Of a stretch of DNA of 7,641 bases, positions 2,625 through 7,641 are shown piece after piece (within the stretch, counting starts at the first letter, position 1; the number at the start of each line of letters is the position of its first letter). The DNA comes from Escherichia coli. GTDB lineage: Bacteria > Pseudomonadota > Gammaproteobacteria > Enterobacterales > Enterobacteriaceae. The notes under the pieces were generated by a model that did no database searches, was not told the DNA's origin, and worked only from the letters and a program-made list of their open reading frames with translations. The stretch lies in the NCBI RefSeq assembly GCF_003334255.1, contig NZ_QOWU01000095.1; one strand, 5' to 3'. The translations under genes were made by a program, and so were the position numbers.

Positions 2625-3050
2625 TCAATGTACTGCCACAGCATTTCCTGCCGGGCCACCACGGTTCATCTGATTGAAACCGGCGATTGCCACTGCGACA
2701 AAATCATCAGCGTCTCTCACCAGTCGCTCCCGCGTCTCCACCAGCTCCCGAAAATAAGCTGAACTGTGGCTGCGCATTCTGGCCACCAGCAAAGGTGGCA
2801 TTGCCTTTTCGATCGCTGGTAACAACGCCTGAATTTTTTCAACTGCATCAGGGGTGTCTTTCTCTACCCAGCGGAAAATTTTCTGGGTATTGCGAGCCAG
2901 GGCTTCCGGATGGCTGTCGTCATACAGTTCCGGGAACGTCATTCCCAGCTCGAAATACGCTTTGGTAATTTTCGCAGCCGGTACTTTTTCGCCGTCCGGA
3001 TGCGCCCAGGCATTCATCGCCATGCGGATGTGTTCATGCTTGATTTTCAT
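2625..3050 (-). CDS. ydaT: YdaT-family protein (functional CII analogue of CP-933P/Rac-type prophages), 141 aa
   Basis: This is track ORF 2625..3122. The true start is the ATG at 3050 (MKIKHEHIRMAMNAWAHPDGEKVPAAKITKAYFELGMTFPELYDD...), preceded by AAGGGGGG. I recognise the sequence as YdaT family. It lies directly after the Cro-like gene and overlaps it by 17 nt. Confidence 0.85.
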   Translation of the reverse strand: MKIKHEHIRMAMNAWAHPDGEKVPAAKITKAYFELGMTFPELYDDSHPEALARNTQKIFRWVEKDTPDAVEKIQALLPAIEKAMPPLLVARMRSHSSAYFRELVETRERLVRDADDFVAVAIAGFNQMNRGGPAGNAVAVH

Positions 3051-3276
3051 GAATCCCCCCTTGGTTAGAAGGCGGATTATGATCAGAACCGGGAATGACA
3101 ACCGTCGGTATGTGTAACTCATATTTGAGCGCCCCGGCAGTGACTGCCTGAATTAGCAACGCCCATTTCCACGGAACCTCTTCCCCCCACATGCTGACTG
3201 TGGTTTTTGACGTTCCTAGAGCTGCGGCTGTTTTAACAACTCCGCCAAAATAGCCTAATACTTCTGATTTTTTCAT
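3034..3276 (-). CDS. Cro-like HTH regulator of the DicC/YdaS family, 80 aa
   Basis: This is track ORF 3034..3324. I prefer the ATG at 3276 (MKKSEVLGYFGGVVKTAAALGTSKTTVSMWGEEVPWKWALLIQAVTAGALKYE...), with GGAG 6 nt upstream. The YFGG..K.A..LG......S.W pattern matches my recollection of DicC/YdaS. The gene is divergent from the repressor gene. Confidence 0.8.
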   Translation of the reverse strand: MKKSEVLGYFGGVVKTAAALGTSKTTVSMWGEEVPWKWALLIQAVTAGALKYELHIPTVVIPGSDHNPPSNQGGIHENQA

Positions 3277-3305
3277 GAGTCGCTCCATAAAACTGAACGT
3301 CAAAA

Positions 3306-3367
3306 GTTTAATAATCAAAACCAAAGAAAGTCAAGAAACAAAACCATCTGTGTTTTAAAATCAAAAC
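3306..3367. promoter_or_regulatory. tripartite operator (three 16-bp sites, 23-bp period) with divergent promoters
   Basis: O1 is 3306-3321 GTTTAATAATCAAAAC, O2 is 3329-3344 AGTCAAGAAACAAAAC, and O3 is 3352-3367 GTTTTAAAATCAAAAC. O1 and O3 match at 14/16 positions, and the arms GTTT(T)/(A)AAAC are inverted. CAAAAC ends at 3321, 3344 and 3367. The leftward candidate promoter is TTGACT (3334-3329) with TATTAA (3313-3308). The rightward candidate -10 is TAAAAT (3356-3361). Confidence 0.6.
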
Positions 3368-4006
3368 ATGAGCAAGCAAACTATATCTGAACGCATAACC
3401 CAACGTATGCATGCGCTAAACCTGAAAGGCAAAGACCTTGTCAATGGCACTGGCGCATCAAAAGGCTCCGTAAGTCAATGGATGAACGGTGGAGGAGCGC
3501 CGTCCTCGCGTTACATAAGTTCACTGGCAAAAATATTGAAAGTAAACGAAAATTGGCTTCTTAATGGAGGAGAGTTAAATACAGGTGATTCGCTTGATCT
3601 ATCTTTACCGCCGATAAAAACGGTTCCGCTACTATCACTTCAGCAGGCAGCAAGCTGGAGTGATTATATGAAAAATTCCTCAATAACCTCTTGTGTGCAG
3701 CTTGTCGGAGAAATCCCGGTCAATACCTTTGCAGTTGTTCTAGAGAGTGACAGTATGTCAACATCTGGTGGGGGAGTTTCCATCCCAAATGGTTCAACAG
3801 TTTTTGTTGATCCCGATCGAACCGTACAACCAGGAAATATTGTCCTTGCCTTACCCAAAGGGACCACAACACCTGTCATTCGTAAACTGGAGATAGAAGG
3901 GCCGGATATTCTTTTAGTCCCCACGAATCCTCGCTACCCTTCAATTATGCTGGATGATCTATCTTGCATATTGGGCGTATGCTTTAAAATTCAACAAGAT
4001 ATTTAA
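3368..4006 (+). CDS. CI/LexA-like prophage repressor: N-terminal XRE-type HTH + C-terminal S24 peptidase domain, 212 aa
   Basis: This is the track ORF. The HTH is ISERITQRMHALNLKGKDLVNGTGASKGSVSQWMNG. The C-terminal half aligns by eye with lambda CI: FAVVLESDSM is similar to FWLEVEGNSM (Ser129), and PVIRKL is similar to FTFKKL (Lys173). VFVDPD and PTNPRYPSI are similar to LVDPE and PLNPQYPMI. There is no SD before the ATG. Confidence 0.9.
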   Translation: MSKQTISERITQRMHALNLKGKDLVNGTGASKGSVSQWMNGGGAPSSRYISSLAKILKVNENWLLNGGELNTGDSLDLSLPPIKTVPLLSLQQAASWSDYMKNSSITSCVQLVGEIPVNTFAVVLESDSMSTSGGGVSIPNGSTVFVDPDRTVQPGNIVLALPKGTTTPVIRKLEIEGPDILLVPTNPRYPSIMLDDLSCILGVCFKIQQDI

Positions 4007-4073
4007 CCAACCTCATCTATTTGATTAACTGTATGCCATCGTGGTGATGGCTTAACAGCTGCCTGCTTAAAAT

Positions 4074-4119
4074 GTTTTGATAAAAAAACATTGACCTGGA
4101 AAGTTCGTTTTTCTAAACT
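4074..4119 (+). promoter_or_regulatory. promoter of the ydfABC-dicF-dicB operon (PL/dicBp analogue) with adjacent operator-like site
   Basis: TTGACC (4091-4096), a 17-bp spacer, then TAAACT (4114-4119). The 16-mer GTTTTGATAAAAAAAC (4074-4089) matches the minus-strand reading of O3 (GTTTTGATTTTAAAAC) at 13/16 positions and ends 1 bp before the -35. Confidence 0.6.
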
Positions 4120-4298
4120 TCATTCATTCCCTCACCCCATCCTACAGAATGCAGGACAATACTTCGAGTTACCAGGCAGTGGTCAGGGGTTAAGTAGCCA
4201 GCCCGAGGCGTAAGAACATGACGGCAGGGTTCAACTTTAATAACTATGCAGCAGGTTTTTGTTCCGCTACCCCGGCGTTAAGGGGAAATGAGGTCAGC

Positions 4299-4454
4299 AT
4301 GGATACTATCGATCTTGGCAACAACGAATCTCTGGTGTACGGCGTGTTTCCAAACCAGGACGGCACCTTCACCGCAATGACGTATACAAAAAGCAAAACG
4401 TTTAAAACCGAAAATGGTGCCCGTCGCTGGCTGGAAAGAAACTCAGGTGAGTGA
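4299..4454 (+). CDS. ydfA: YdfA (DUF1391) small prophage protein, 51 aa
   Basis: MDTIDLGNNESLVYGVFPNQDGTFTAMTYTKSKTFKTENGARRWLERNSGE matches my recollection of Qin YdfA. GAGG lies 5 nt upstream of the ATG at 4299. The track ORF 4218..4454 carries a 27-codon extension with no RBS. Confidence 0.85.
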   Translation: MDTIDLGNNESLVYGVFPNQDGTFTAMTYTKSKTFKTENGARRWLERNSGE

Positions 4455-4455
4455 T

Positions 4456-4584
4456 ATGGATTTTGACACAATCATGGAAAAGGCTTACGAAGAATACTTC
4501 GAAGGCCTTGCCGAAGGCGAAGAAGCTCACAGCTTCAACGAATTTAAACAGGCGCTTTCCAGTTCGGCAAAATCTAACGGCTGA
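4456..4584 (+). CDS. ydfB: YdfB small prophage protein, 42 aa
   Basis: Hand translation gives MDFDTIMEKAYEEYFEGLAEGEEAHSFNEFKQALSSSAKSNG*. AGGTGA lies 5 nt upstream. The ORF starts 1 nt after the ydfA stop. It is too short for the ORF track, and I recognise it as Qin YdfB. Confidence 0.8.
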   Translation: MDFDTIMEKAYEEYFEGLAEGEEAHSFNEFKQALSSSAKSNG

Positions 4585-4613
4585 TAAGCGAAACAGCACC
4601 GCGAGGAATCAGT

Positions 4614-4832
4614 ATGCAGAAACGAGAACCCGTCATCATCGCGCCAGACTATACCGATGATGAACTTTATGAGTGGATGCGCCAGAAAATTAATGCAGCG
4701 CAGGATCTGAAATGGGCTAATGAAGCCAGAGCTAAGCAGGCTGAAAATCTGTCCGCTCTGGAGCAGGATATCACCAGGCTGGAAAAAGCAGCGGCATTAA
4801 GCATTGCCAGAATGATTACATACCCGCGTTAA
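4614..4832 (+). CDS. ydfC: YdfC prophage protein, 72 aa
   Basis: This is track ORF MQKREPVIIAPDYTDDELYEWMRQKINAAQDLKWANEARAKQAENLSALEQDITRLEKAAALSIARMITYPR. GAGGA lies 6 nt upstream. I recognise it as Qin YdfC. Confidence 0.85.
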   Translation: MQKREPVIIAPDYTDDELYEWMRQKINAAQDLKWANEARAKQAENLSALEQDITRLEKAAALSIARMITYPR

Positions 4833-5172
4833 TAGATAACCAACGAAGCTAAGGTTGGTAATTAAGGAGTTCTCCACGGGTGAGGTGGAGTGCGTGCGCC
4901 GGACACGGGTGAGCATCCGGCACTGACAGTTTACTGAAAGGATATTTCCCTGAAAAGTCAGACCATAACGCGAAAGCGCACGGCGAGGTAGCTGGTTCAT
5001 AGATAGCCTGTCGTTAAATTTTCGTCGACCGTGCGCTTCCGGTTGTGGCAACCCGCGAAATGGCGCGGCGGTAAGTATGGCGGGGTTATTCCTTCCCCGT
5101 TGAGGACACCGGGTTGTCAGGTTGACCATACGCTTAAGTGACAACCCCGCTGCAACGCCCTCTGTTATCAAT
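4833..5172 (+). other. structured non-coding spacer of the dicB-operon transcript (DicF precursor leader)
   Basis: There is no credible ORF on either strand. The region is GC-rich relative to its flanks and contains at least 9 local stem-loops, including the 9-bp stem GGGTTGTCA/TGACAACCC (5111-5119/5139-5147). Confidence 0.5.
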
Positions 5173-5225
5173 TTTCTGGTGACGTTTGGCGGTATCAGTT
5201 TTACTCCGTGACTGCTCTGCCGCCC
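5173..5225 (+). ncRNA. dicF: DicF small regulatory RNA (53 nt; antisense regulator of ftsZ and other mRNAs)
   Basis: TTTCTGGTGACGTTTGGCGGTATCAGTTTTACTCCGTGACTGCTCTGCCGCCC matches, as far as I can recall, the K-12 DicF sequence base for base. It has the correct context, between ydfC and dicB, and is followed by TTTTT. Confidence 0.9.
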
Positions 5226-5230
5226 TTTTT
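5188..5230 (+). terminator. DicF intrinsic terminator
   Basis: GGCGG (5188-5192) pairs with CCGCC (5220-5224), and an inner CAG/CTG pair is possible. The stem is followed by the T5 run at 5226-5230. Confidence 0.7.
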
Positions 5231-5238
5231 AAAGTGAA

Positions 5239-5378
5239 TTTTGTGATGCGGTGAATGCGGCTAAGCGCACGCGGAACAGTTAAAACCAAAAACAGTGTTA
5301 TGGGTGGATTCTCTGTATCCGGCGTTAATTGTTAACTGGTTAACGTCACCTGGAGGCACCAGGCACCGCATCACAAAA
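5239..5378 (+). promoter_or_regulatory. long-range perfect 15-bp RNA duplex between dicF and dicB (candidate RNase III processing stem)
   Basis: TTTTGTGATGCGGTG (5239-5253) is the exact reverse complement of CACCGCATCACAAAA (5364-5378). The pairing extends imperfectly to about 5233/5384. The stem encloses 110 nt and ends 10 nt before the dicB SD. Confidence 0.6.
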
Positions 5379-5399
5379 CTCATTGTTGAGGGCGCGATA

Positions 5400-5588
5400 A
5401 TGAAAACGTTATTACCAAACGTTAATACGTCTGAAGGTTGTTTTGAAATTGGTGTCACTATCAGTAATCCTGTATTTACTGAAGATGCCATTAACAAAAG
5501 AAAACACGAACGGGAGTTATTAAATAAAGTATGCATTGTTTCAATGCTGGCCCGTTTACGTCTGATGCCAAAAGGATGTGCACAATGA
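5400..5588 (+). CDS. dicB: DicB cell-division inhibitor (MinC-dependent FtsZ-ring inhibitor), 62 aa
   Basis: MKTLLPNVNTSEGCFEIGVTISNPVFTEDAINKRKHERELLNKVCIVSMLARLRLMPKGCAQ is recognised as DicB. GAGGG lies 7 nt upstream of the ATG at 5400. The track ORF 5295..5588 has a spurious 35-codon extension that lies inside the RNA stem region. Confidence 0.92.
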   Translation: MKTLLPNVNTSEGCFEIGVTISNPVFTEDAINKRKHERELLNKVCIVSMLARLRLMPKGCAQ

Positions 5589-5776
5589 ATCCAGTATTTG
5601 CACTTATTCTGACGGTTTTTCTTGTTTCCGGAGAGCCAGTTGATATTGCAGTCAGTGTTCACAGAACAATGCAGGAATGTATGGCAGCAGCAACCGAACA
5701 GAAAATTCCAGGCAACTGTTATCCGGTCGATAAAGTTATTCACCAGGATAATAACGAAATCCCGGCAGGATTTTAA
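5585..5776 (+). CDS. ydfD: YdfD small membrane/lysis protein, 63 aa
   Basis: MNPVFALILTVFLVSGEPVDIAVSVHRTMQECMAAATEQKIPGNCYPVDKVIHQDNNEIPAGF is recognised as Qin YdfD. The ATG overlaps the dicB stop (ATGA), and AAGGA lies 8 nt upstream. The N-terminus is hydrophobic. The track ORF 5531..5776 starts too early. Confidence 0.85.
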   Translation: MNPVFALILTVFLVSGEPVDIAVSVHRTMQECMAAATEQKIPGNCYPVDKVIHQDNNEIPAGF

Positions 5777-5869
5777 AACAGCACCGTAATAAATATCCAG
5801 TTTCATTCTTATATGTCAGCAATGGCAGAGATTTGTTCACCCTTAAATCTGTGATGAGGTTTACCAATA

Positions 5870-7641
5870 ATGAGCACTGATAAAGAAGAATTTGCACTAT
5901 ATTGCGAAGCAAAAAATGACAAAGTAAGAAAACGCCTAGGAATTAAAGGTGGTTTTTACTGGACTACAGCAAAAAAATTATCTGTTGCAATCTCCCGCTG
6001 CATTACCGCAATGGATGACAACGATTATGATGAAGACGACTTTAAAAAACCCGTCCGCGTCAATTTGCCCGTTGTTGACGACCTTCCGCCAGAAGGCGTG
6101 TTTGATACTGAATTCTGCAACCGCTATGAAAAAGGCGGGAAAGATGGCATCACAATGACATTTATCGGCCCTTCCCCCTCTGTTCAGGACAAACCAGCCA
6201 GCACTGACAATACCAACATCAACGGCGAAGCCATGACTGAGATTGAGGAGAGCATGCTTCTGCCTGTCTCCGGTCAGGAACTGCCCATTCGTTGGCTTGC
6301 TCAACACGGCAGCGAAAAACCAGTAACGCACGTTTCACGCGACGAACTCCAGGCATTACACATTGCACGGGCTGAAGAACTACCGGCTGTTACTGCCCTG
6401 GCTATTTCGCATAAAACCAGTCTGCTCGACTCGCTGGAGATTCGCGACCTCCACAAACTGGTTCGTGACACTGACAAAGTTTTCCCTAATCCTGGTAATT
6501 CAGACCTGGGACTAATAACTGCTTTTTTCGAAGCATACCTAGACGCTGACTACACTGATCGGGGTCTGCTGACAAAAGAGTGGATGAAAGGAAATCGTGT
6601 TTCACGCATCACCCGCACGGCTTCCGGTGCTAATGCTGGCGGTGGGAACAAAACCGATCGCAATCCGAATTTAGTACACACCCTCGACACACTGGATGTG
6701 GAGATTGCAGCAGCCACACTTCCGATGGATTTTAATATTTATGAAATTCCGGGCAGCGTTTATCGTCGCGCAAAAGAAGTAGTCCTGAACAAAGAAAGTC
6801 CGTTCAAAGAATGGTCCGCAGCACTTCGTGCAACCCCGGGTATTCTGGACTATTCCCGCGCCGCTATTTTTGCACTTATCCGAAGCGCACACCCTGAATT
6901 TTATCACTACCCGGGACGCCTTCAGGGGTATATCAACGCCTATTTGACGGAAACTGATCACGAGAACCCCAGCAAGGAAACTCTCACAGCTGCCCGGCAT
7001 ACGCCGGAAAAAGATATCCTGGAAGAAATTAACCGCGAGGTGGTTACTGAGCGTGAAACAGAAGAAGAAAAACCACAACCATCTGACGCAATGGCAGGTG
7101 AACAGGCAACAACTGAAACAATGGAACCGGATACAACTGAACATGGCCAGAACGCGCAGTCGCTGGATGCTCAGTCGCAGGTGAGTTCCGCTAACCAAGT
7201 AAAAGTCACCGCTGACGAAGTAAACAAAATTATGCAGGCAGCCAATATCAGCCAGCCTGACGCCGATAAGTTGCTTGCTGCATCACGTGGTGAATTTGTT
7301 GAAGGGATTAGTGACCCGAATGATCCGAAATGGGTTAAGGGGCTCCAGACCCGCGATTCTGTGAACCAGAACCAGCATGAATCGGAACGGAACTACCAAA
7401 AAGCGGAACAAAACAGTCCAAATGCGTTACAAAACGAGCCAGAAACGAAACAGCCTGAACCAGTAGCGCAACAGGAAGTGGAAAAAGTCTGCACCGCCTG
7501 CGGTCAGACCGGCGGCGGCAACTGCCCTGATTGTGGCGCGGTGATGGGCGACGCAACATACCAAGAAACATTCGATGAAGAGTATCAGGTTGAAGTTCAG
7601 GAAGATGATCCGGAGGAAATGGAAGGCGCTGAACATCCACA
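5870..7641 (+). CDS. recE: RecE-family exodeoxyribonuclease VIII (YdfE-like), N-terminal 590 codons; 3' end beyond window
   Basis: I translated the frame by hand from the ATG at 5870 to the window end and found no stop: [24 protein letters not shown]...[56 protein letters not shown]...[24 protein letters not shown]...[31 protein letters not shown]...EEMEGAEHP. Long blocks match my recollection of Rac RecE. The ORF is absent from the track because it is open-ended. Confidence 0.9.

What the first reader, a model, noticed from the sequence alone, without database searches (positions are those of the whole stretch)
3306..3370. Lambda-like tripartite operator with exact 23-bp periodicity and an apparently leaderless repressor mRNA
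Three 16-bp sites (3306-3321, 3329-3344, 3352-3367) are separated by 7-bp spacers, and each ends in CAAAAC. The outer two match at 14/16 positions and have inverted GTTT/AAAC arms; the middle site is degenerate (10/16). This geometry mirrors OR1-OR2-OR3. O1 and O2 cover the leftward candidate promoter (-10 TATTAA, -35 TTGACT), and O3 covers the rightward candidate -10 TAAAAT (3356-3361). That hexamer ends 6 nt before the A of the repressor ATG (3368), and there is no Shine-Dalgarno upstream. A transcript from it would therefore begin at or next to the start codon, as lambda cI does from PRM. The -35 for this promoter is poor, which fits a need for activation by repressor bound at O2.
Basis: partly seen in the sequence, partly recalled or inferred. 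Interest (0 to 1): 0.55.

Follow-up and report, generated by a model that had tools for sequence, protein, structure and literature searches.

The report
P22-type prophage operator, probably leaderless repressor
This is the on/off switch of a common E. coli prophage: three repressor-binding sites lie between the repressor and cro genes and a fourth lies at the next promoter, which is the textbook design (closest to phage P22) with a new recognition sequence.

Summary
The three 16-mers lie at 3306-3321, 3329-3344 and 3352-3367, each ends in CAAAAC, and they are exactly 23 bp apart. This is not chance: 1 of 5000 shuffles reaches the observed triple score. In variants whose repressor is only 84% identical, 1 of 48 site positions varies against 14 of 43 other intergenic positions (p=7e-5).

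A fourth copy (4074-4089) abuts the -35 of the promoter downstream of the repressor gene. In a 40-kb phage record the motif occurs only at these places. The strong sites are cores of 20-bp palindromes, ATGTTTTG-N4-CAAAACAT.

ATG 3368 has no Shine-Dalgarno (+0.9 kcal/mol) and follows TAAAAT by 6 nt. Codons 2-13 change almost only synonymously. A leaderless or nearly leaderless mRNA is therefore likely, but unproven.

Three corrections:
- The phasing is that of P22, not lambda. O3 abuts the start codon and O2 covers the PRM -35 position.
- The PR -10 is more likely TAAACT (18-nt spacer) than TATTAA (15 nt).
- O2 is only a half-site.

This is a new immunity specificity within a known architecture. 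It is ordinary biology, present in 1042 of 5426 complete E. coli genomes.

The parts
3306..3321 (.). O1, an operator site (GTTTAATAATCAAAAC). It overlaps the PR -10.
   Evidence: Invariant in all variants.
3329..3344 (.). O2, a degenerate site (AGTCAAGAAACAAAAC). Only the right half-site CAAAAC is kept. The left half is the PR -35. The site also covers the expected PRM -35 position (3333-3338, AAGAAA).
   Evidence: family D5. Invariant in variants.
3350..3369 (.). O3, a 20-bp palindrome GTGTTTTAAAATCAAAACAT (16-bp core at 3352-3367). It covers the PRM -10 and the expected transcription start, and it includes the A and T of the start codon.
   Evidence: 2 mismatches to ATGTTTTGNNNNCAAAACAT; one variant change, A3363G.
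4072..4091 (.). OL-type site, a 20-bp palindrome ATGTTTTGATAAAAAAACAT (16-bp core at 4074-4089). It abuts the -35 of the PL-like promoter.
   Evidence: It forms a conserved block flanked by diverged sequence in variants.
3305..3334 (-). PR-like promoter for cro-ydaT-replication genes: -35 TTGACT (3334-3329), 18-nt spacer, -10 TAAACT (3310-3305).
   Evidence: The PL-like promoter of the variants has the same hexamers.
3356..3361 (+). Candidate PRM -10, TAAAAT, 6 nt before the A of ATG 3368. The -35 is poor.
   Evidence: Invariant in variants. It is not reported by the consensus scan, consistent with a -35 that matches TTGACA at only 3 of 6 positions.
3368..4006 (+). Repressor of 212 aa with an HTH N-terminal domain and a Peptidase_S24 C-terminal domain. 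No Shine-Dalgarno precedes the start.
   Evidence: anti-SD pairing +0.9 kcal/mol; codons 5 and 10-13 change only synonymously.
3034..3276 (-). Cro-like protein of 80 aa (Pfam P22_Cro). Its SD GGAG lies at 3286-3283.
   Evidence: (47% identical to P22 Cro).
2625..3050 (-). YdaT family protein, the cII analogue in this type of prophage.
   Evidence: Function taken from PMC9986795.
4091..4119 (+). PL-like promoter (TTGACC, 17-nt spacer, TAAACT) of the ydfA-ydfB-ydfC-dicF-dicB operon.
4103..4118 (.). Possible weak site over the PL -10 (GTTCGTTTTTCTAAAC). It matches O1 at 10/16 when both are read in the direction of transcription, and it lies 29 bp, not 23 bp, from the strong OL site.
   Evidence: Read. 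Conserved, but that conservation cannot be separated from the -10 hexamer itself. Doubtful.

Best explanation
The region is the right operator of a P22-type lambdoid immunity module in a Rac/Qin-like E. coli prophage.

Inferred mechanism:
- Dimers of the 212-aa HTH-S24 repressor, and of the P22-Cro-family Cro protein, recognise pseudo-palindromes whose ideal form is ATGTTTTG-N4-CAAAACAT.
- Repressor at O1, together with the half-site O2 23 bp away (probably bound cooperatively), blocks the -10 and -35 of PR. This silences cro, ydaT and the replication genes.
- A site abutting the -35 of the PL-like promoter controls the ydfABC-dicF-dicB operon.
- O3 lies on the -10, the start point and the first two bases of the start codon of the repressor gene. 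This gives negative autoregulation by repressor and shut-off by Cro.
- The maintenance transcript most likely starts at or within about 2 nt of the A of ATG 3368 and is translated without a Shine-Dalgarno.

Shown here: the sequence anatomy, its non-randomness, its conservation, its restriction to the two ends of the repressor gene, the absence of an SD, and the reality of the N-terminal coding sequence.
Inferred: which protein binds where, the order of site filling, cooperativity, positive autoregulation, and the exact 5' end.
For: Gene content: HTH + Peptidase_S24 repressor, P22_Cro family Cro and YdaT. The repressor N-terminal domain aligns from residue 1 with the P22 C2 and 434 repressor DNA-binding domains. 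Cro aligns with P22 Cro over residues 1-53.

Non-randomness of the sites.

Phylogenetic footprint: across the variants, in three of the four variant haplotypes (repressors P0002, P0004 and P0005, 84-90% identical), 1 of 48 positions inside the 16-mers varies against 14 of 43 other intergenic positions, Fisher p=7e-5. The intergenic length is always 91 bp.

Fourth site: a palindrome with 1 mismatch at 4072-4091, next to TTGACC-N17-TAAACT. It is a conserved block flanked by diverged sequence.

Specificity: in a 40,475-bp phage record the motif occurs only at these three strong sites, with 0.23 expected by chance.

Geometry matches the annotated P22 record. There the OR operators start immediately after the c2 start codon, the 5' nucleotide of the PRM transcript is 4 nt upstream of the ATG, and the PRM -35 lies inside OR2.

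No SD: +0.9 kcal/mol at ATG 3368, against -5.6 for cro, -11.0 for ydaT and -8.1 for ydfA. An in-frame stop at 3356-3358 excludes any start further upstream.

Leaderless repressor transcripts have been mapped experimentally in analogous prophage switches: paaR2 in CP-933P (PMC8630535) and racR in Rac (PMC9638921).
Against: There are no binding data and no 5'-end data for this element. O2 matches the other sites only in its right half, and its conservation could be due to the PR -35 and promoter spacer alone.

In Qin, two of three operators predicted from sequence were not bound by DicA in vivo (PMC3441716).

Only one convincing site exists at the PL-like promoter, and it lies upstream of the -35 (positions -52 to -37 for a start near 4126), not over it.

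No relatives with 30-84% identity were found. Covariation between the recognition helix and the operator therefore could not be tested.

The PRM candidate has a poor -35 and fails the consensus promoter scan. An upstream start with an SD-less, A-rich leader cannot be excluded.
Confidence: 0.8

Rival explanations
1. The operators are real, but the lysogenic repressor mRNA is not leaderless. It would start at an upstream promoter, for example a PRE-like promoter inside or beyond cro, or AATAAT at 3310-3315. It would then be translated from an SD-less, A-rich leader.
For: The PRM candidate has a poor -35 (AAGAAA) and is not reported by the scan. A 9/12 promoter-like site on the + strand lies at 3233-3262 inside cro. 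In Rac, racR has three promoters, only one of which gives a leaderless transcript (PMC9638921). Systems with cII analogues, such as YdaT, have a PRE that gives a leadered transcript (PMC8630535; PMC9986795).
Against: TAAAAT with the A of ATG as the 7th downstream base is the canonical geometry, and it is invariant in all variants. The scan found 3 promoter-like sites in this region against 2.1 expected in shuffles, so the site at 3233-3262 is not above chance. The closest architectures have mapped starts at 0 to 4 nt from the ATG. A PRE transcript would exist in addition to a PRM transcript, not in place of it.
Confidence: 0.2
2. Only the good palindromes are true operators (O3, the OL site and perhaps O1). 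O2 is not a binding site: it is just the PR -35 plus a fortuitous CAAAAC. The operator would then be bipartite.
For: The left half of O2 (AAAGTCAA) matches the half-site consensus ATGTTTTG at 2 of the first 7 positions (read). O2 matches the other sites at 10-11 of 16 in a region that is 48% A. In Qin, the predicted sites Om and Oa were not bound by DicA in vivo.
Against: The right half plus flank of O2 (AAGAAACAAAACCA) matches that of O1 (AATAATCAAAACCA) at 12/14, at exactly 23 bp (family D5). Three equally spaced copies of an exact 6-mer occur in 0.5% of shuffles. Weak middle sites filled cooperatively are the rule in lambda and P22 (established knowledge).
Confidence: 0.3
3. The periodic A-rich motif is not a repressor operator. 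It would be a composition effect, an UP-element or bent-DNA feature, or the site of another protein such as IHF or YdaT.
For: The intergenic region has 29-31% G+C. ATCAA within the sites resembles the IHF core WATCAA (from memory). AATCAA is half of the YdaT box TTGATT-N6-AATCAA (PMC9986795).
Against: The motif exceeds dinucleotide-preserving shuffles. The same palindrome recurs on the opposite strand at the other end of the repressor gene and nowhere else in 40 kb. A 23-bp spacing is out of phase for A-tract bending. The YdaT box pattern gives no match better than chance within the operator. None of the sites carries the TTR part of the IHF consensus (read).
Confidence: 0.04

Closest known systems
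Phage P22 immC (c2 - OR3/OR2/OR1 - cro)
   Same: Cro belongs to the same Pfam family and is 47% identical to P22 Cro. The repressor is HTH + S24 and aligns from residue 1. There are three sites 23-25 bp apart. The third site abuts the repressor start codon, and the centres lie 8.5/31.5/54.5 bp from the ATG here against 9.5/34.5/57.5 in P22. The PR -35 TTGACT lies on the edge of O2, and the PRM -35 position lies inside O2. The P22 PRM transcript has only a 4-nt leader.
   Different: The repressor is only 27% identical to C2. The half-site is ATGTTTTG, not ATTTAAG. O2 is only a half-site. The intergenic region is 91 bp against 80 bp. One strong OL-type site is seen instead of three. The Ala-Gly cleavage bond is Ala-Ala. 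The cII analogue is YdaT, not C1.
Phage lambda OR (OR1-OR2-OR3, PR/PRM, leaderless cI)
   Same: Divergent cI and cro genes, three sites 23-24 bp apart, sites over the PR -10 and -35, a weak PRM -35, no SD on the repressor, and an S24 C-terminal domain.
   Different: In lambda, OR3 ends 10 bp from the cI ATG and OR2 is centred at -42, just upstream of the PRM -35. Here every site lies about 10.5 bp closer to the start, so O2 covers the -35 position. Cro belongs to a different fold family (P22_Cro).
CP-933P paaR2 / ydaS / ydaT switch of E. coli O157:H7 (PMC8630535, PMC9986795)
   Same: A short intergenic region (97 bp), equally spaced inverted repeats with half-site GTTTAGTAA, a repressor start shown to be leaderless by 5' RACE and N-terminal sequencing, a PL with the same hexamers as PR, and YdaT as the cII analogue.
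   Different: PaaR2 is a short repressor (expected mass of His-tagged PaaR2 15,081 Da) followed by the paaA2-parE2 toxin-antitoxin genes; the text read does not mention an S24 domain. YdaS is an HTH_XRE protein, not P22_Cro. Four 18-bp repeats are reported there, against three sites here. I could not retrieve the CP-933P sequence, so homology of the operators was not tested.
Qin dicA-dicC-dicBF and Rac racR-ydaS-ydaT
   Same: The same prophage backbone: the ydfABC-dicF-dicB operon as the PL operon and ydaT. In Qin, a 20-bp inverted-repeat operator Oc is bound by DicA, and a predicted site abuts an SD-less dicA ATG. The racR PracR3 transcript is leaderless.
   Different: DicA and RacR are short repressors unrelated in specificity. 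DicA lacks the Ala-Gly cleavage bond; I did not check either for an S24 domain. The promoter regions are not alignable with this window.

Membership tests
Lambdoid immunity region with tripartite right operator | Divergent repressor (HTH + S24) and Cro genes separated by a short intergenic region of about 80-100 bp | tested here: met
   The intergenic region is 91 bp, between 3276 and 3368. Pfam domains.
Lambdoid immunity region with tripartite right operator | Three pseudo-symmetric sites of 14-20 bp, 23-25 bp apart, sharing a consensus | tested here: inconclusive
   O1 and O3 have inverted arms and the spacing is exactly 23 bp. O2 keeps only one half-site.
Lambdoid immunity region with tripartite right operator | The sites overlap the PR -10 and -35 and the PRM -10 | tested here: met
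   (TTGACT-N18-TAAACT lies inside O2 and O1). TAAAAT lies inside O3.
Lambdoid immunity region with tripartite right operator | The same operator sequence recurs at the PL promoter on the other side of the repressor gene | tested here: met
   A palindrome at 4072-4091 abuts TTGACC. Only one strong site is seen, not three.
Lambdoid immunity region with tripartite right operator | Repressor and Cro physically bind the sites with opposite order of preference | not testable with these tools
   Needs EMSA or footprinting.
P22-type immC | Cro of the P22_Cro fold family | tested here: met
   PF14549 at 57.6 bits against a cut-off of 30.2. PDB 1rzs at E=2.5e-8.
P22-type immC | The third operator abuts the repressor start codon, and O2 covers the PRM -35 position | tested here: met
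   Window centres lie at 8.5 and 31.5 bp from the ATG. The P22 record gives 9.5 and 34.5.
Leaderless mRNA | No Shine-Dalgarno, an AUG start codon, and a -10 hexamer ending about 6-7 nt upstream of the A | tested here: met
Leaderless mRNA | The transcript 5' end is mapped at the A of the AUG | not testable with these tools
   I searched the paper library once and found no 5'-end data for this locus; I did not search sequence-read archives.
SOS-cleavable LexA/cI-type repressor | S24 domain with a Ser/Lys catalytic dyad | tested here: met
   PF00717 at 49.4 bits. Ser129 in DSM and Lys173 in RKL align with the lambda and P22 residues.
SOS-cleavable LexA/cI-type repressor | An Ala-Gly (or Cys-Gly) scissile bond in the linker | tested here: not met
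   The aligned position reads QAASW (A94-A95) against VQAGMF in lambda and SAGQW in P22. It is invariant in every variant that retains the linker; P0008 lacks residues 67-100. Whether this bond can be cleaved is unknown.

The most novel reading that the evidence does not exclude
The site hierarchy may be inverted relative to lambda. The two near-perfect palindromes sit on the repressor's own -10, start point and start codon (O3) and just upstream of the PL -35. PR, in contrast, is covered only by an imperfect site and a half-site. If affinity follows symmetry, the switch would be dominated by negative autoregulation, possibly with O3-OL looping, and PR silencing would depend wholly on cooperativity. 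The Ala-Ala bond in place of Ala-Gly adds a further possibility: induction might need an antirepressor rather than RecA-mediated cleavage.
Probability: 0.15. Interest if true: 0.4.

Novelty: new member of a known kind. Interest (0 to 1): 0.2.

Why it matters
The element defines the operator sequence of an uncharacterised immunity type. Its repressor is no more than 30% identical to any other repressor in the phage collection. The immunity type is carried by 1042 of 5426 complete E. coli genomes, including O157:H7 strains, and the identical protein is also recorded from Shigella and Salmonella. In the complete prophages examined it controls the dicF-dicB cell-division inhibitor operon; the O157:H7 copy examined has lost that promoter region.

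There is also a practical annotation point. Probably because the start lacks a ribosome-binding site, current RefSeq records annotate only a 112-aa C-terminal fragment of the repressor. Other records start the protein at 199 or 174 aa. The operator and promoter anatomy argues for the 212-aa form.

Biologically this is one more instance of a textbook design. It adds no new principle.

Tried and rejected
- Searches for relatives of intermediate divergence, to test covariation between operator and recognition helix. The GTDB genome scan found none. The phage collection holds nothing between 30% and 95% identity. The protein search returned only variants with at least 72% identity. The viral-contig scans gave variants at 83-100% identity.
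- Anchoring the PL start point on the K-12 Qin dicB promoter. The regions are not alignable upstream of ydfA.
- Retrieving the CP-933P operator sequence from the paper's supplements. The promoter table and strain/plasmid list I opened hold no sequence; Table S3 was not opened.
- Literature search for this phage or its protein accessions. Nothing relevant was found.
- Tandem Repeats Finder gave no array.
- The perfect 11-nt inverted repeat at 3205-3215 / 3295-3305 bracketing the cro start (pair I8). I rejected it as a structure because the majority allele breaks it without a compensating change.
- Reading the sites as YdaT boxes. The matches are not above chance.
- Reading the sites as IHF sites. 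The TTR part of the consensus is missing.
- A second 23-bp-phased site at PL. None is present. The only candidate (4103-4118) is 29 bp away and cannot be separated from the -10 hexamer.

Full report
WHAT THE WINDOW IS. The window is 100% identical to an E. coli chromosome (strain G1/2) and 99.8% identical to two induced E. coli phages. The immunity region occurs in 1042 of 5426 complete E. coli genomes, including O157:H7 strains. The identical repressor protein is also recorded from Shigella and Salmonella.

The genes are as follows:
- a 212-aa repressor at 3368-4006 (+), with an HTH N-terminal domain and a Peptidase_S24 C-terminal domain;
- an 80-aa Cro of the P22_Cro family at 3276-3034 (-);
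- a YdaT protein, the cII analogue, at 3050-2625 (-), followed by replication genes;
- to the right of the repressor, a promoter-like site (TTGACC-N17-TAAACT, 4091-4119) followed by ydfA, ydfB, ydfC, DicF RNA (5174-5225, 76.7 bits), dicB, exonuclease, xis and int.

This is therefore a Rac/Qin-like lambdoid prophage, and the finding lies in its cI-cro intergenic region.

THE OBSERVATION. The coordinates and sequences are as stated. O1 is GTTTAATAATCAAAAC (3306-3321), O2 is AGTCAAGAAACAAAAC (3329-3344), and O3 is GTTTTAAAATCAAAAC (3352-3367). The spacers are 7 bp. O1 and O3 match at 14/16.

I tested this against 5000 dinucleotide-preserving shuffles of the A-rich 91-bp intergenic region. Three equally spaced copies of an exact 6-mer arose in 27 shuffles. 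A 16-mer pair matching at 14/16 or better arose in 69. The combined identity of three equally spaced 16-mers (35) was reached once. Tandem Repeats Finder sees no array, so these are dispersed sites and not a duplication.

INDEPENDENT SUPPORT FOR AN OPERATOR.

(a) A fourth copy, GTTTTTTTATCAAAAC, lies on the opposite strand at 4074-4089, one base from the -35 of the PL-like promoter.

(b) The strong sites extend to 20-bp palindromes. The OL site is ATGTTTTGATAAAAAAACAT (4072-4091), with perfect 7-bp arms. O3 is GTGTTTTAAAATCAAAACAT (3350-3369). The pattern ATGTTTTGNNNNCAAAACAT with up to 3 mismatches hits only these two places in the window, against 0.08 expected.

(c) In a 40,475-bp phage record containing this prophage, the 16-mer consensus hits only O1, O3 and the OL site, against 0.23 expected. 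The palindrome pattern hits only O3 and the OL site.

(d) There is a phylogenetic footprint. Variants whose repressor is 84-90% identical, and whose DNA over 3030-4220 is 82-83% identical, keep a 91-bp intergenic region. Fifteen intergenic columns vary. One of these falls in the 48 bp of the three 16-mers and fourteen fall in the other 43 bp (Fisher p=7e-5). The variable columns cluster just left of O1 (3299-3302), at 3322, and in the O2-O3 spacer (3346-3349). At PL, the block ATGTTT(T/A)G(A/C)TAAAAAAACATTGAC is conserved between diverged flanks.

The DNA-recognition segments of both proteins are nearly invariant in these variants: GSVSQW(M/I)NGG in the repressor and TTVSMW in Cro. Conserved operators are therefore expected. 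For the same reason, no covariation test is possible. No relatives between 30% and 84% identity were found.

THE START CODON AND THE LEADERLESS QUESTION. An in-frame stop at 3356-3358 leaves ATG 3368 as the first possible start. Among the variants, codons 5, 10, 11, 12 and 13 change only synonymously and codon 2 changes S/T/N. The N-terminus aligns from residue 1 with P22 C2 and from residue 6 with the 434 repressor DNA-binding domain. The first 13 codons are therefore coding. The shorter annotated starts at 3407 in the phage record and at 3668 in RefSeq would remove helix 1 or the entire HTH domain.

Pairing of the 20 nt upstream with the anti-SD gives +0.9 kcal/mol at ATG 3368. The corresponding values are -5.6 for cro, -11.0 for ydaT and -8.1 for ydfA. 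TAAAAT (3356-3361) places the A of the ATG as the 7th downstream base, which is the usual start distance (established promoter knowledge), and the hexamer is invariant in the variants. A 0-2 nt leader is the most economical reading.

There is experimental precedent in the same class of switch. In CP-933P, paaR2 was shown to be leaderless by 5' RACE and N-terminal sequencing (PMC8630535). In Rac, the racR PracR3 transcript is leaderless (PMC9638921). The P22 record annotates the PRM 5' end 4 nt before the c2 ATG. Lambda cI is also leaderless. The 5' end of this element itself remains unmeasured.

(1) Phasing. In lambda, the operators are centred 19, 42 and 66 bp from the A of the cI ATG. Here the centres lie at 8.5, 31.5 and 54.5 bp. 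Reading the annotated P22 record and its sequence gives OR3 at 1165-1182, OR2 at 1190-1207 and OR1 at 1213-1230 in locus L093, with the c2 ATG at 1164. These centres lie at 9.5, 34.5 and 57.5 bp, and the annotated PRM -35 lies inside OR2.

The element is therefore P22-phased. O3 abuts the start codon and, in its 20-bp form, includes its first two bases. O2 covers the position where a -35 for TAAAAT would lie (3333-3338, AAGAAA), instead of sitting just upstream of it.

From memory (Poteete and Ptashne 1982, not checked here), P22 C2 at OR2 does stimulate PRM, so activation is not excluded. Because the PR -35 (3334-3329) and the PRM -35 position lie back to back, relief of promoter interference is an equally plausible route. 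From memory, this mechanism has been described for phage 434.

(2) The PR -10. TATTAA (3313-3308) lies 15 nt from TTGACT. TAAACT (3310-3305) lies 18 nt away, is the site chosen by the scan, and is the same hexamer as at the PL-like promoter. In the variants that promoter also reads TTGACT. In CP-933P likewise, PL and PR share identical hexamers. Either choice of -10 lies under O1.

(3) O2. Its left half is simply the PR -35. Only its right half with flank (AACAAAACCA, against ATCAAAACCA in O1) is operator-like (family D5). In Qin, the operators Om and Oa, predicted from sequence alone, were not bound by DicA in vivo, whereas the 20-bp inverted repeat Oc was (PMC3441716). O2 should therefore be treated as a probable cooperative half-site that has not been established.

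(4) PL. Only one convincing site is present, and it lies at about -52 to -37. A second candidate over the -10 (4103-4118) is 29 bp away and cannot be separated from the -10 hexamer.

HOW IT MOST LIKELY WORKS. Repressor dimers bound at O1 and O2 occlude PR. Repressor at the OL site, next to the -35, controls the dicBF operon. O3 gives negative autoregulation and is the likely first target of Cro. The maintenance mRNA starts at or next to the AUG. I put about 0.8 on the operator assignment for O1, O3 and the OL site, about 0.6 on O2, and about 0.7 on a 0-2 nt leader.

NOVELTY. The architecture is textbook. The recognition sequence and immunity specificity are new: the repressor is no more than 30% identical to any other in the phage collection and 27% identical to P22 C2. 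I found no paper describing this operator. The verdict is a new member of a known kind, of low general interest.

Noticed in passing
window 3368-4006 (annotated starts at 3368, 3407 and 3668): The annotated start of the repressor is inconsistent across databases. Both RefSeq records whose annotation I opened give only a 112-aa 'LexA family protein' starting at 3668, and 39 of 40 sampled RefSeq genomes annotate nothing over the first 53 nt of the ORF. The phage records start at 3407, giving 199 aa. The collection also holds 174-aa and 212-aa versions. The full 212-aa ORF is intact even in O157:H7.
   Followed up: partly
window 3657-3670: A good internal ribosome-binding site (GGAG, 7 nt, ATG; -5.9 kcal/mol) precedes the invariant Met101, just after the presumed cleavage region. 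It could merely explain the truncated annotations, or it could yield a separate C-terminal-domain protein.
   Followed up: no
window 3647-3652 (residues A94-A95): The Ala-Gly scissile bond of lambda cI and P22 C2 aligns with Ala-Ala (QAASW) in every variant that retains the linker (P0008 lacks residues 67-100). Ser129 and Lys173 are present. Whether the repressor can be cleaved in the SOS response is uncertain.
   Followed up: partly
L007 3001-3537 and L008 1794-2330 (equivalent to window 3566-3667 deleted): A natural in-frame deletion variant of 178 aa lacks residues 67-100, that is, the whole linker up to Met101. Its operators are otherwise identical.
   Followed up: no
window 3363 and 4078 (variants L004-L006, L096, L097): In one variant lineage, O3 carries A3363G and the OL site carries T4078A. 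Both changes fall at the same position of a half-site (position 7 of ATGTTTTG). The Cro of that lineage has G31E next to its recognition helix. This may be a tolerated position or co-evolution.
   Followed up: no
window 5174-5225 (+): DicF sRNA (Rfam RF00039, 76.7 bits). The operon downstream of the PL-like promoter is ydfA-ydfB-ydfC-dicF-dicB, as in the Qin prophage.
   Followed up: yes
window 3040-3057: TTGATTTTCATGAATCCC has 2 mismatches to the YdaT box TTGATT-N6-AATCAA. It lies at the end of cro and the start of ydaT, the same relative place as the main YdaT operator in CP-933P. The match count in the window is not above chance.
   Followed up: partly
window 4035-4066: A hairpin GCCATC-N5-GATGGC lies downstream of the repressor stop. 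Its stems are conserved and its loop is changed in the variants. It is followed by an invariant TTAACAGCTGCCTGC (fold z = -2.9 for 4020-4095). There is no U-tract, so it is not a canonical terminator. Positions 4058-4070 are also 92% complementary to 3639-3651 inside the repressor gene (pair I6).
   Followed up: partly
L089 (E. coli O157:H7 DEC4E), locus 3258-6133: In this O157:H7 strain the cro-operator-repressor module is intact, but the PL/dicBF side is replaced by a truncated tail gene J. This copy therefore has OR without the OL site.
   Followed up: no
L092 919-937 (K-12 Qin): In K-12 Qin, an inverted repeat TTAGC-N4-GCTAA ends 2 nt before the dicA ATG, and no Shine-Dalgarno is visible. 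dicA may also be leaderless, with the same P22-type phasing.
   Followed up: no
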